Shown in pieces: positions 4,201-58,200 of a stretch of DNA of 64,000 nucleotides. Below the pieces are notes generated by a model. The model saw nothing but the letters and a program-made list of their open reading frames with translations. It had not been told where the DNA came from and did no database searches. The stretch's first letter is position 1, and the number at the start of each line of letters is the position of its first letter. The stretch lies in contig JAQGDQ010000093.1 of the NCBI GenBank assembly GCA_030141605.1, positions 62,001 through 126,000 of the forward strand. Direction: 5' to 3'. The translations under genes were made by a program, and so were the position numbers. Source of the stretch: Tubiluchus corallicola. Lineage: Eukaryota; Animalia; Priapulida.

Positions 4201-7200
4201 CACGCTTCTGTTGATTTTCTAAAAATTTGAAATCTTGCAATAGTTCTTCTTTTGCAAGATATAGAGGACAGACTGCAAATAAAATCAAGCATCAAAACAA
4301 CATCATACAGATTTATGCGTTCAACTCAGTGGCGTCACTAATAACGGAGCAAGGGGGAGCAACAACTCCCCCTAGGCACATTTTTCAAAATTGGCACCTT
4401 TCAGCAACCAGGTTAAAAGGGGTGTGCATATGCGAGCATGTGTGAGTTGTCAATAGGGCACAAGCAAACAAACACCCGCTGTAAAATTTATAACATTACA
4501 AAATGACCAATGTAGATAACTAATAGACATATCATTATCATAACAGTTGACAACCCATGCTGTCCTAATACCTAACTAACAACCAATTCACACTACTGGA
4601 TGTTACTTGAATTGAAAGCAGCGTGCACAATGTGTGTGTAAACAATATGCTTCAAAACAAGTGCAGTCGATTCTATGAACAAGCTACACAGTTAATCTAC
4701 ATAAACTTAGACAAAGAGGAATTAGTATTAGCACGTACAGACCTACTTATTACAAAGTGTGTATTGCGAACAAGTACAAGAGTATTACGTACTACAAAGT
4801 GTGCAAGGCAAACAAGTACAAGAGTACTACGTACTACAAAGTGTGCATTGCAACAAGTACAAGAGTACTTCGTACTACAAAAGGTGCATTGCAAACAAGT
4901 ACACGAGTACTACGTACTACAAAGCAGGCATTGCAAACAAGTACATGAGTACTAAGTTCTTCAAAGTGTGCATTGCTAACAAGTACAGGAGTACTACATA
5001 CTACAAAGTGTGCATTGCAAACATGTACATGAGTACAATATACTACAAAGTGTGCACTGCAAACAAGTACATGAGTGGTACAATTAAAATGTCATTTATA
5101 TCGTACCGAGAAGGGCATCAACTTCATCCAGATTTCCATTCACAGACTTCTCACACATCTGTAGTAAGCGGAAGTGAGGAGACATCATGATTGGCAAGGA
5201 AGCTGTCGCTGCCGCCGGAGATGATTGTTGGTTTCCTGTGGTGGATCGACCGCACAGCATCGGCACCAAATTGATTGCGATCTTATCGCTTTCCTCCTCG
5301 GATCCAACCGGCTGACTGAACTCATCTTCAATTCCTAATCTTGTTTCCACGGCAACCAGCAAACCACTGTAGAAATAAAAGCTTTTCAATTTCACAGAAA
5401 GAGAAGCGGCTACAGCTTAAAAGATCCTTTAAAGAATTTTCCATAGAAAAAGAAATACTTGGAAGCACCTATTATTACAGCCTATAAGAACCATCTTGTC
5501 AACAGACAAAAGACAACAACAATATGAACAAAAAGAAATTAGGACCCAGTAAATTAGTTTACTTTAAGTTACAACTGAAACAGTGATGCAGCTAATAGGA
5601 AGCAAGGGAAGCAACTGCTCCCCCAACACATTTTTTTCAAAATTGGTGCCTTTTCAATCTGCCTTATTACTCTATTTGACCAACCTGTCTCCCGTGTTTT
5701 TGAAACATACGCATTTACACAACTCATTTGTCAAGGCTGACTGGTTGAAAAGAGGGTCAAATTGCACAAACTCTAAAACTCTAATATGTTCTGATCACAG
5801 TGCCTTTTTTATATTTTTGCCCCCTTAACTTTAGAATATAGCTACACCCCTGAACTGAAACAAGTACAATGTGTCACATATATAATTATTGATATTTTTT
5901 CCAAGAATTGATTTCTTATAAATGTAGCTCCATATCTTCCTTTACTGAATTTCCTTTGAAGGAAAAGAGATCCAGCAATTCCATCATTAACGTAAGTTGT
6001 ATTTTCTGCAACTATAAGATATGCAAGGTAATCCAAGAAAACCATTTTTCCAAACTAACTTGAAGCTCTTCGTCCCAGTAGAGGACACTAGAGGCATGAT
6101 CATCGTGCATCCTAATGTCTCCTCGTTCTAAATGCGTATATATGCCCAAGAAGTGCTGCTAGGACGTTTTTTGTGCACAATAAGCAAAAAACAGTCATTT
6201 TTGGAAGTTTCCTCCTGCGTACAAAAACCGACTTAGGTGCACTTGGTTGGAATCTTGGACAAAAACTTTTACTTCTTTGGAAAGAAGAGAAACCGGGTTA
6301 GACGATAACGTGTGTCGCTTTAACAAACGCTTCTAATGGGATGAAAGGTTACGAGTACTTTGCGGAACGTTTTTTCTGAAAGACCCTGTATGATTGCAGT
6401 GCAAATTTGTCATGCACTGGTGGACACATTCACTCGTGCACAGTAAACAAATGCCATAGTATGAGTCACAATTATCTCAAGCAAACAAGCATTCGTTAGG
6501 GTCACAGCCTAAAAGCACGGCAAATGTACGACCGTGACAAATTACTGATGACAATAGGTAACCATTAATGATCGCCAATGCTGCTTAGCAGAGCCCAAAG
6601 AAAAAAAAAACTGCCAAACAGCTGACAGCACTAAGGTAGCTTGCACAGTGTTGCTTTCAAAGTATGTTTTCTAAAAACAGTCGACAAATGCATTTCAAAT
6701 TTTACAAAAATGACTGAGAGCCAAATAAACTTAAATGCGTAAAACTTAGAACTTTTCAAATTTGATAAAACAGATGTAATTTAGTAAACTTATGTCCAAA
6801 GAAAACTGATGTGCAACTAGAAAAGTCTAATTATGGTGCACACACAGTTGCAAAACCTATTCATGTATGTGGAAGTAACTGTCTAAATGTAGAACAACAT
6901 AAAGACATATTTCAACATGGTAATAATCGTTTGAGTAATAGCAAAGGTTATAAATGCTGACCTACTAATAACATGAATCAGAGTTTTAACTACGAAATAC
7001 AGCTGAACATATCCGGATGGGATGAGGCCACCACAAATCGAGTTATGGTTTTATGCTTGGACGTGATCTTTCGCATCAATGCTACACTAATGATTGCCCT
7101 CAACGTCCTCGTGATGATCGCAGTGATCAAGTTCGAGAATTTGCGAAACAATGCAAACTGGCTTATTTTCAATATGTCTGTGGCCGACATGTTGGCAGGA

Positions 7201-55200: not shown

Positions 55201-58200
55201 CTTGCAATTTTCCGAAATTTTACCAGCAAAGCCAAACAAAATGCTTTGGAGATAAATGCAACTTCAATGCCTAATTTCATTAGGAAGGAAGCCATGAAAT
55301 TTTATAAAATTGAAACCAAATTTTAAGGTAAGTTAGCTCTTTTAATTAAAGAAAACTTGTTTTTACATCAAATTTGACCTTTAAGAATATTATCTGAAAT
55401 GATGATCCTTCTACTAATAACACAACTTAACACAACTTCTGAAATAGCACAGATGGTGACAGTAAATGAGATTACATCCTTATGATACTGCAACTGTGTG
55501 AAAGTTAACATGGTGTTACCTACACCTACCTAGCAGTCATTCTAGGTTGGCCCAGAAATGATAGTTTTAACTAATATTGGTAATGTCTGCTGTGATAAAG
55601 AAATCATGTGGTTCTCCTCTTATTAGGTTAAACTTTGCGCAATTGATCACTTAAAGTAAGACTGTTTACCCAAATAAATTATTACTGACAATGACTAAGT
55701 GGGTACCTTACTTCGTGTGAGGGCAGCGGGTGTAACGAGTTGCATCAACTACCCTCTCCAGATACAATATGCAAATAAAAGTGATTTATATGAAAACTGA
55801 AATACCCAAGCTGTTTTACACAAAGGCATATCAAGTAACTTGTATACATAAAAGATAAAATATGGTGTGCATAAGCTTTTAATTACCAGTGCTTAATGTG
55901 CATTTGCATCTGCCGTGCATAAGCTTTCTATTTCCAGTGTTCAATGTGCATTTGCATCTGTTTTGCATAAGCTTTCTATTTCCAGTGTCCAATGTGCATT
56001 TGCATCTGTTTTGCATAAGCTTTCTATTTCCAGTGCTCAATGTGCATTTGCATCTGTTGTACATAAGCTTTCTATTTCCAGTGTCCAATGTGCATTTGCA
56101 TCTGTTGTGCACAAGCTTTCTATTTCAAGTGCTCAATGTGCATCTGCATCATCTGCGCATGAGCTTTTTATTTCCAGTGCTCAATAAGCATTTGCATCTG
56201 CCAGGTAATAAAGTTATCTATTGTTGACTAAATGATTTGGGCAAGTTCCGTCAGCCAAAAAGTACGAAGTACGGGAAAATGGATCCATTTTAATAGCAAA
56301 AGCTTGTTCCAGCACAACTACACGTCACCATGAAAAATGCATGCTTTTCTATTTATTCTTTTAAACATCAGAATGTTCTAAAATTGAAACAGTTAATGCG
56401 TTCACGATGTGTACTCACACAAAAGGCCACATCTGGGCTTAAATGTTAAAGGGCACGCGGCATTGTATGAGACGTCAATTCATTAAATTTCACTTTCCAC
56501 ACATTTACTTGCATCAAAGCAAACAAAAATCAAAGGAACAATTAGTTCATTCAATTGCAGGCACAACTAAATACATATGAGGGAATTCACCAGGCTCGGT
56601 AATTTTTAATGGAAGATAAACAAACGGCAAATATAAATGAGAACATGTCAGAAAAGCAGCGACAAAAATACACTAGTACTAACCATTGGATCAATACCTT
56701 GAGCATTTCGTGAATTTTGTCACTTTTATCTAATTCATCTAATATATCGTTTGTGACAACTTGGAAATAAAAGTGATGTCTGCTATGCACATCAGAAACT
56801 AGCTCATTGTAACTCCTGTTCAAAAACACAGATCAGAATTGTGAGGCCTAAAAGTACATAACTGGTGGTAACAAACAGTGCTTTGGAAGTTTGCAATTAA
56901 AACTGATGCCCTGTCTGTTGCGGAAGGAAAGAAATGAAAAATATTGAAAATGACTCTCGAGGAATCCAAGAAGAAAGGAACAATGGTCACATGAAAAAAT
57001 CCACATTATAAATGCTTAGTGAAAGAGCTAAGAGTGATGAGCTATTCTGACACGGACATAGAAAGAGTCCTGAACTTCACTTTAACTTATAAGTTATTCT
57101 GACATGGACAAGGAAAGAGTTGTGAATTTCACTTCTAACAATATCAGCACCGTCAGCTTAGAAACAAATTTAACAAACGATGAGCAAGAGGATGCTGGTT
57201 ATTCTAATCTTCACACCTTCAATGTCGCATTCATCTTCGCTATTAGCACAGTCGCCCTGATAACGAATCTACTCCTCTTAGTAGCTTTGCAGAAGCACGG
57301 AAGCAAGAAGAATGCCTGCAACTACCAAATGACATGTTTAACAGTGGCGAATTTAATAAAAGCTGTGACTGGATTCACTTACAACGTAACGGCTAATGTA
57401 TGTCTGTCATATGAAACAGCATGCGTCATGAAAATTTTAGCAGTTGTTACAACAAAAGCAAGCTTTTACCACCTTTGCCTGATAGCCATAGAGCGATGTA
57501 TTGCTTTCTGCTACCCAGCATGGTATAAAACTTCATTTACATTAAAGAAGCTGTCAATTGCGATTACGACTGTGTGGATAATTTCATTGGTTGAAGAACC
57601 TTTACCGTTTTACTGGAAACTCCAGACAGAAGGGAACTGCGGAGGTATCATACTGCCAAAGGCTTCCTTTCTCAGATATTATAGTCTTGCAAAACTCATG
57701 GCACCTATGGCGATGGTGATGGTTATATATTTAATAATCATTATAAAAACTCATCAGGCAGTTAGAAGTGCCAGCCAACCACGGGCATGGCCCACGCGGC
57801 AAGCCACGGAACGTAGACAAGAAGGAATCAAGCAAAGAACGAGAAAAATATTGATTATTTTCTGCATGACTTGGATAATCACGGTAATGTTAGTGTCCGT
57901 ACTGCACACGTGCGCGTGTGTGTCGCTAACAGTTGCACGTCTGTCAAGCATTTTCATCTATTGCAATTGCATTCTGGATCCGCTGTTCTACGCGCTGACG
58001 GTACCAGCCAACAAAATGGTGCTCGATGCTTTTGTGAAGACAGCGATAAGGAAATTTTGTGCCAATACGATCGCACCCTAAACTTCGGTGCAACGCACCA
58101 TGTTAAAAGCAAATGGAGAAAACTTTAGAAGAAATGTAATGAATGACAGCATTCTGCTGAACAATGTCGTGATGAGTGTCAACACGTCTGAGTTGTTATT

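What the first reader, a model, noticed from the sequence alone, without database searches (positions are those of the whole stretch)
6973..58081. Mixed-modality sensory locus: ionotropic GR-like genes bracketed by metabotropic GPCRs
Seen: the order is GPCR-A, GPCR-B1, GRL-1 to GRL-6, GPCR-B2, all co-oriented. The paralogs B1 and B2 sit on opposite sides of the GR array. Established: GRs and class A GPCRs are evolutionarily unrelated, so co-clustering cannot come from tandem duplication alone. Inference: the GR founder landed between two GPCR-B duplicates, or a B copy jumped the array. Repeated recruitment of unrelated receptor families into one intron hints at a shared sensory-cell enhancer or a permissive chromatin domain.
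Basis: partly seen in the sequence, partly recalled or inferred. Interest (0 to 1): 0.72.

Follow-up and report, generated by a model that had tools for sequence, protein, structure and literature searches.

The report
Two receptor superfamilies in one intron
One 55-kb intron of the DNA-repair gene FANCD2 in an unidentified invertebrate holds, on the opposite strand, six intact insect-taste-receptor-like genes (predicted ion channels) flanked by three unrelated G-protein-coupled receptor genes; the layout is real but likely built by a few insertions plus local duplication, and shared control of the nine genes is untested.

Summary
The gene order is confirmed: GPCR-A, GPCR-B1, six GRL genes, GPCR-B2, all on +, all with open frames. 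They fill a single 55,396-nt FANCD2 intron on the opposite strand (neighbouring introns 0.2-1.4 kb). The GRLs are 7TMIC members by Pfam, fold, TM7 motif and 3' phase-0 introns; ion conduction is inferred. B1/B2 are true but old paralogs (32-33% identity); GPCR-A is a separate lineage. The GRL tree implies a two-gene block duplication and a recent copy with gene-conversion tracts. Co-orientation is weak evidence (tandem copying plus the known antisense bias of nested genes). Upstream regions share no more exact words than controls. No RNA data, genome or relative was available, so sensory expression, a shared enhancer, synteny and the chance level remain untested. 'Repeated recruitment' is not required: a pre-formed cluster could have entered once. 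My limited paper searches found no GRL-plus-GPCR nested cluster. An unusual, testable layout of ordinary parts; interest 0.35.

The parts
5367..60762 (-). FANCD2 host intron, 55,396 nt, GT-AG, phase 2; holds all nine receptor genes
   Evidence: in-frame splice of flanking exons; colinear with chicken/human FANCD2
60763..60836 (-). FANCD2 exon (74 nt) upstream of the large intron
   Evidence: AG/GT ends and frame continuity; no significant FANCD2 hit alone
62210..62308 (-). FANCD2 exon (99 nt)
   Evidence: chicken FANCD2 623-643, E 0.015, top hit; boundaries
63475..63556 (-). probable FANCD2 exon (82 nt)
   Evidence: splice sites and frame; no FANCD2 hit alone
5107..5366 (-). FANCD2 exon (260 nt) downstream of the large intron
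   Evidence: Pfam FancD2 689-758; PDB FANCD2 E 1e-6
4157..4272 (-). FANCD2 exon (116 nt), predicted GC donor
   Evidence: chicken FANCD2 759-803, E 8e-4; boundaries
3568..3912 (-). FANCD2 exon-bearing ORF (3' boundary not fixed)
   Evidence: Pfam FancD2 797-897; human 796-879
6973..7935 (+). GPCR-A, single-ORF class A GPCR, 320 aa, adenosine-receptor/GPR119-like orphan
   Evidence: Pfam 7tm_1; best PDB hits A2A and GPR119; best database hits insect orphan 'H2-like' receptors at 26-31%
10649..11542 (+). GPCR-B1, single-ORF divergent class A GPCR, 297 aa
   Evidence: Pfam 7tm_1; paralog of B2
13268..20831 (+). GRL1: exons 13268-14458, 19845-19934, 20721-20831
   Evidence: Atlas features 0.95 to 7tm_7 clusters
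23477..25512 (+). GRL2: exons 23477-24622, 24872-24961, 25411-25512
26982..31627 (+). GRL3: exons 26982-28169, 30062-30151, 31511-31627
   Evidence: model of exon 1 matches GR/OR structures
33683..37100 (+). GRL4: exons 33683-34849, 36400-36489, 36993-37100
42886..45876 (+). GRL5: exons 42886-44034, 44895-44984, 45778-45876
51586..53670 (+). GRL6: exons 51586-52749, 52922-53011, 53563-53670; recent duplicate of GRL5 (81% aa)
57104..58081 (+). GPCR-B2, single-ORF divergent class A GPCR, 325 aa
   Evidence: Pfam 7tm_1; Atlas features 0.96-0.97 to unnamed 7tm_1 clusters

Best explanation
Nine intact receptor genes lie antisense in one FANCD2 intron, and the layout likely arose when a GRL founder inserted between an old pair of orphan GPCR genes (B1, B2) and then multiplied by unequal crossing-over, with each gene probably driven by its own promoter rather than by a shared enhancer. 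Shown: gene models, strand, the single intron, family membership, B1/B2 paralogy, the GRL tree. Inferred: the order of events; that the array grew by a two-gene block duplication (GRL2+GRL3 giving GRL4+GRL5) and a recent single duplication (GRL5/6) with later gene conversion; that the cluster is tolerated because antisense genes do not disturb FANCD2 splicing; that the GRLs work as tetrameric ligand-gated cation channels like insect GRs and the GPCRs signal through G proteins. The GRLs and B-type GPCRs are likely chemoreceptors, but this is by family analogy only.
For: Tree of six spliced GRLs: (GRL2,GRL4) 99/99 and (GRL3,(GRL5,GRL6)) 95.5/94, i.e. crossing pairs that single-gene tandem copying cannot give; ML distances 2.19 and 2.32 for the two pairs. 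GRL5/6: dN 0.114, dS 0.304, with synonymous divergence 0.055-0.072 in two tracts and 0.545 between them (Fisher p 6e-11 on tracts picked after viewing). All 12 GRL introns are GT-AG phase 0 at matching positions, 6 of 6 frames open. Receptors fill the intron from 1.6 kb to 2.7 kb of its ends, gaps 1.5-5.8 kb, neighbouring introns 244-1373 nt. Shared upstream 7-10-mers: 13-100% of 200 control sets reach the observed counts. Poly(A)-like hexamers follow 8 of 9 stops within 1.5 kb (common in AT-rich DNA, weak). Antisense bias and weak expression correlation of nested genes with hosts: PMC3814207 (abstract and passages). Large tandem expansions of orphan class A GPCRs are common in invertebrates: PMC11886862 (abstract, passages, section 20), PMC5442662 (passages).
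Against: Three unrelated lineages (A, B, GRL; A-B distance saturated at 7-8) in an intron that was probably 1-2 kb long is a small target for independent landings; if A and B arrived separately the Poisson chance is 0.00-5% over the assumed densities. The genes have stayed intact together while diverging to 24-34% identity, which fits some selection on the locus. B1/B2 divergence (2.75) lies within the range of the deep GRL splits (2.2-3.5), so the dates do not show that B came first. The motif test sees only exact words near the ATG and cannot see a distal enhancer.
Confidence: 0.55

Rival explanations
1. Selected sensory locus: a shared enhancer or chromatin domain drives GRLs and GPCRs in the same sensory cells and keeps them together.
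For: Nine intact genes, no pseudogene found; deep divergence with retained linkage; both families supply chemoreceptors elsewhere (PMC7746228 Introduction; PMC11886862 abstract).
Against: No excess of shared upstream words; no upstream similarity between any GPCR and any GRL by blastn, only GRL2/3 and GRL5/6 pairs; GPCR-A resembles adenosine/GPR119-type receptors and may have an internal ligand; orientation needs no regulatory cause.
Confidence: 0.15
2. One-step entry: a mixed GPCR/GRL cluster formed elsewhere and moved into the FANCD2 intron as one DNA block, so the intron recruited nothing repeatedly.
For: Small original target (neighbouring introns 0.2-1.4 kb); uniform orientation; GRL genes keep introns, so they moved as DNA.
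Against: No breakpoint or donor locus can be seen in the window; needs a long block to move intact.
Confidence: 0.15
3. The bracket arose without a landing between B copies: a block holding one B gene and one or more GRLs duplicated in tandem and the outer GRL copy was lost.
For: Block duplication is implied inside the array; B1/B2 divergence is of the same order as the deep GRL splits.
Against: Needs an extra loss; no GRL remnant between A and B1 or after B2 (profile search), though none would be expected at this age.
Confidence: 0.12
4. Assembly artefact or two unrelated FANCD2 pieces rather than one intron.
For: The upstream exons match FANCD2 only weakly on their own; no read spans the locus.
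Against: Six exons splice into one open frame colinear with vertebrate FANCD2; contigs of run X1 match B1, GRL1, GRL5, GRL6 and B2 with 0-3 differences per listed piece (X1 may be the source data, so not independent).
Confidence: 0.03

Closest known systems
Animal Gustatory Receptor-Like (GRL) / 7TMIC genes (insect GRs such as Gr43a, Gr64a, BmGr9; Pfam PF08395); nearest sequence Priapulus caudatus XP_014679403.1 (partial)
   Same: 7tm_7 match, GR/OR fold (TM-score up to 0.66 to BmGr9), TYhhhhhQF motif, phase-0 introns at the 3' end, tandem growth; the Priapulus fragment ends at the same place as exon 1 here.
   Different: Only 1 protein among 1.84 billion representatives reached E 0.001 (32% over about 100 aa); two rather than three 3' introns; neighbours are class A GPCRs; ligands and expression unknown.
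Nested (intronic) genes of Drosophila and mammals (PMC3814207; NF1 with three antisense coding genes in one intron, MOB2 with 13 nested genes incl. KRTAP5 paralogs, PMC4394429 passages)
   Same: Several unrelated genes antisense in one intron of a conserved host; paralog arrays inside introns.
   Different: Nine receptor genes of two superfamilies inflate one intron about 40-fold; host is FANCD2.
Lineage-specific tandem expansions of orphan class A GPCRs in marine invertebrates (Lophotrochozoa, PMC11886862; starfish ApORs, PMC5442662)
   Same: Short, divergent rhodopsin-type receptors without a clear ortholog, lying in clusters.
   Different: Here only two B copies and one A copy are seen, split by a channel array; whether B belongs to a large expansion could not be tested without the genome.

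Membership tests
GRL / 7TMIC | Profile similarity to Pfam 7tm_7 | tested here: met
   best family in 6 of 6 first exons, above cut-off in 5 of 6
GRL / 7TMIC | TM7 motif TYhhhhhQF (as given in PMC9998090, passage) | tested here: met
   present in exon 3 of 6 of 6 genes
GRL / 7TMIC | [quoted passage not shown] | tested here: met
   two phase-0 GT-AG introns around a 90-nt exon in 6 of 6 genes; matching them to particular ancestral insect introns was not tested
GRL / 7TMIC | Orco/GR-like helix packing | tested here: met
   model of GRL3 exon 1 (pLDDT 70, pTM 0.71, lacks TM7): the 20 best listed PDB matches are all insect GRs/ORs, TM-score 0.41-0.66, next family 0.25 or less
GRL / 7TMIC | Seven TM helices, N-terminus inside | tested here: inconclusive
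   crude hydropathy scan finds 6-7 segments per protein; topology inferred from the fold match only
GRL / 7TMIC | Tetrameric ligand-gated ion conduction | not testable with these tools
   needs electrophysiology; most GRLs are unproven channels (PMC9998090, passage)
Class A (rhodopsin) GPCR | Pfam 7tm_1 above curated cut-off | tested here: met
   113.5, 68.6, 62.3 bits vs 30.5
Class A (rhodopsin) GPCR | DRY, CWxP and NPxxY motifs (motif names recalled; DRY and NPxxY also) | tested here: inconclusive
   A has ERY, CWLP, NPLIY; B1/B2 have ERY/ERC and DPLxY but lack the TM6 proline (sequences, alignment)
Aminergic GPCR / opsin | Asp at TM3 position 3.32 (aminergic) or Lys at 7.43 (opsin); positions recalled | tested here: not met
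   counted by eye from the TM3 Arg and TM7 Pro: Thr, Thr, Ala at 3.32; no Lys at 7.43 in any of the three
Chemosensory GPCR (lineage-specific expansion) | Member of a species-specific expansion and expressed in sensory tissue | not testable with these tools
   no genome, no RNA holder listed
Nested gene structure | Genes wholly inside one intron of a host gene | tested here: met
   FANCD2 intron 5367-60762; the splice is predicted, not read from RNA
Co-regulated receptor locus (shared enhancer) | Shared cis-element and co-expression | tested here: inconclusive
   no excess of shared exact words in 8 upstream regions; expression and chromatin not testable

The most novel reading that the evidence does not exclude
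An old, selected chemosensory supercluster in which ionotropic 7TMIC channels and metabotropic class A GPCRs share one enhancer and work in the same sensory cells, hidden in a FANCD2 intron: a natural test bed for how animals ran both receptor systems side by side. (A separate long shot: the host phylum is undetermined; if it were a chordate, these would be canonical GRLs in a lineage reported to lack them. I put that near 3%, as the only sequence hit is a priapulid GRL.)
Probability: 0.13. Interest if true: 0.7.

Novelty: new variant of a known kind. Interest (0 to 1): 0.35.

Why it matters
GRLs outside arthropods have almost no functional data and often occur in small numbers; six intact, deeply diverged copies with a young pair whose N-terminal transmembrane half stays divergent while other tracts are homogenised give ready candidates for ligand screening. 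If the GPCRs and GRLs prove co-expressed, the locus would link the two main animal chemoreceptor systems in one cell type. If not, it is a clear example of how an antisense intron shelters and is inflated by unrelated receptor families.

Tried and rejected
No genome is held, so receptor density, family sizes and synteny were not measured. No RNA holder listed; run X2 (RNA by guess) showed only repeat-like pieces and no depth over the receptor exons laid, and GPCR-A had almost no cover in X1: neither is evidence. Word-indexed protein searches found nothing for a FANCD2 exon or GRL1; the GPCR-A search gave 16 hits, 14 from insects, picked by shared words, so orthology is not shown. No result from metagenome contigs. 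Rfam: 0 matches. Sixteen other ORFs in the intron gave no Pfam hit at cut-off. Phylum could not be fixed: Priapulus GRL is the only sequence hit and nests inside the array with weak support (85.6/75 on 108 aa). Earlier scan notes on this genome or look-alike stretches: none. Paper searches for a GRL-plus-GPCR or FANCD2-nested cluster returned nothing relevant (listings only); the library lacks most subscription papers, Robertson 2015 was not looked up, Saina 2015, Assis 2008 and a FANCD2 exon paper were not held, and no supplements were read, where GRL gene lists may already hold these genes. That the 74-nt, phase-2 exon matches human FANCD2 exon 22 is recalled, not checked (one search gave no source). 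No complex prediction was run.
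Full report
Observation. A six-frame ORF scan and Pfam confirm three single-ORF class A GPCRs (6973-7935, 10649-11542, 57104-58081) and six long first exons whose best family is 7tm_7, all on the + strand in the order reported. Scanning for splice-bounded exons found exactly six 90-nt second exons and six third exons carrying the TYhhhhhQF motif; the six spliced frames are open and 445-464 aa long. Translated searches with the nine proteins and with profiles built from them found no further copy or remnant.

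The host. Minus-strand exons at 63475-63556, 62210-62308, 60763-60836, 5107-5366, 4157-4272 and from 3912 join into one open frame. Four of these six match FANCD2 on their own and in order: chicken 623-643 (E 0.015), 692-759, 759-803 and human 796-879; the 74-nt and 82-nt exons do not score alone. The intron 5367-60762 is 55,396 nt, GT-AG, phase 2, against 244-1373 nt for the four neighbouring introns. Receptor genes begin 1.6 kb from one exon and end 2.7 kb from the other, so the cluster itself makes the intron large. The splice is predicted; no RNA was available.

What the genes are. The GRLs meet the tested 7TMIC criteria: profile, TM7 motif and 3' phase-0 introns as described in PMC9998090 (passages), and a model of GRL3 exon 1 whose 20 best listed PDB matches are insect GRs and ORs. 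That they conduct ions is inferred. They are far from anything in the databases: 1 hit among 1.84 billion representatives, a partial Priapulus protein that ends where exon 1 ends here. GPCR-A is nearest to adenosine A2A and GPR119 among solved structures and to insect orphan receptors at 26-31% (biased to shared words). B1 and B2 are divergent orphans forming a 100/100 clade apart from A. None has the aminergic Asp or the opsin Lys (counted by eye; positions recalled). The phylum is undetermined; canonical GRLs are reported across animals except chordates (PMC7746228 Introduction), and the one sequence hit leans to a protostome.

How the array grew. The GRL tree pairs GRL2 with GRL4 (99/99) and GRL3 with GRL5/6 (95.5/94). 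Crossing pairs in the order 2-3-4-5 need a two-gene block duplication; the pair distances are similar (2.19, 2.32), although GRL1-GRL3 is as close (2.20). GRL5/6 are 81% identical with dN/dS about 0.38, and their synonymous divergence is a mosaic: 0.055 in codons 1-55, 0.545 in 56-230, 0.072 in 231-383, 0.5-0.8 in exons 2-3, best read as gene conversion. B1-B2 divergence (2.75) falls inside the range of the deep GRL splits (2.2-3.5) and A-B is saturated, so dates cannot order the events. A GRL founder landing between B1 and B2 is the one-step history; block duplication with loss, or entry of a pre-formed cluster, remain open.

Is it more than chance, and is control shared? Without a genome I could only tabulate: for 100-2000 GPCR loci in 300-2000 Mb (assumed; class A counts of 153-2352 per genome appear in PMC11886862 section 20) the chance of at least one in a 55-kb span is 0.3-31%, and of two independent ones up to 5%. 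The layout is therefore uncommon but not out of reach of chance in a scan of very many windows. Co-orientation adds little: about four independent events are involved and 71% of Drosophila nested genes are antisense (PMC3814207, passages). Exact 7-10-mers shared among 1.5-kb upstream regions of 8 of the 9 genes (GRL6 left out as a recent copy of GRL5) were never above controls: 13-100% of 200 control sets reached the observed counts. This test misses degenerate motifs and distal enhancers, and start sites are unknown. Contigs of run X1 match B1, GRL1, GRL5, GRL6 and B2 closely, but X1 may be the source data.

Comparison and verdict. The parts are known kinds: GRL arrays, orphan GPCR clusters (PMC5442662 passages; PMC11886862) and multi-gene antisense nesting (PMC4394429 passages). 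Five paper searches listed no description of GRLs and class A GPCRs nested together or of receptors in a FANCD2 intron, within a library that lacks most subscription papers; no supplements were read. Unchecked notes from this scan describe similar nested GPCR arrays and mixed chemosensory clusters in other genomes; they are leads only. New variant of a known kind, interest 0.35; 0.7 if same-cell co-regulation were shown (probability about 0.13).

Noticed in passing
window 42787-43086 and 43566-43865 versus the matching parts of GRL6 (51586-52749): GRL5 and GRL6 are nearly identical in two tracts (including the proximal upstream region) but 15-32 differences per 100 columns in between (43087-43565), over the N-terminal transmembrane half; likely gene conversion that spares the putative ligand-binding part.
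   Followed up: partly
window 21991-22105 and 25617-25733: A 117-bp element, 85% identical, same orientation, lies 1.2-1.4 kb upstream of GRL2 and GRL3, far younger than these genes; repeat or converted regulatory piece, not resolved.
   Followed up: no
window 32218-33104 and 39161-40042: An 890-bp direct duplicate (89%) upstream of GRL4 and between GRL4 and GRL5; its ORFs have no Pfam hit. A possible substrate for unequal crossing-over.
   Followed up: partly
window 4157 (minus strand): The FANCD2 exon 4157-4272 appears to use a GC donor.
   Followed up: no
window 57050-57135: A local duplication of roughly 50 bp spans the start codon of GPCR-B2, with an AG acceptor-like site just upstream of the ATG (seen); a 5' non-coding exon is possible.
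   Followed up: no
window 14695-15151, 15808-16472, 46939-47591, 58330-58724: High-copy dispersed repeats inside the intron (summed contig depth in the hundreds to thousands in run X1).
   Followed up: no
window 3165-4305 and 2086-2559: Run X1 contigs differ from the window by about 2.5-5% over FANCD2 exons and flanks but by 0-3 bases over the listed receptor pieces, suggesting divergent haplotypes.
   Followed up: no
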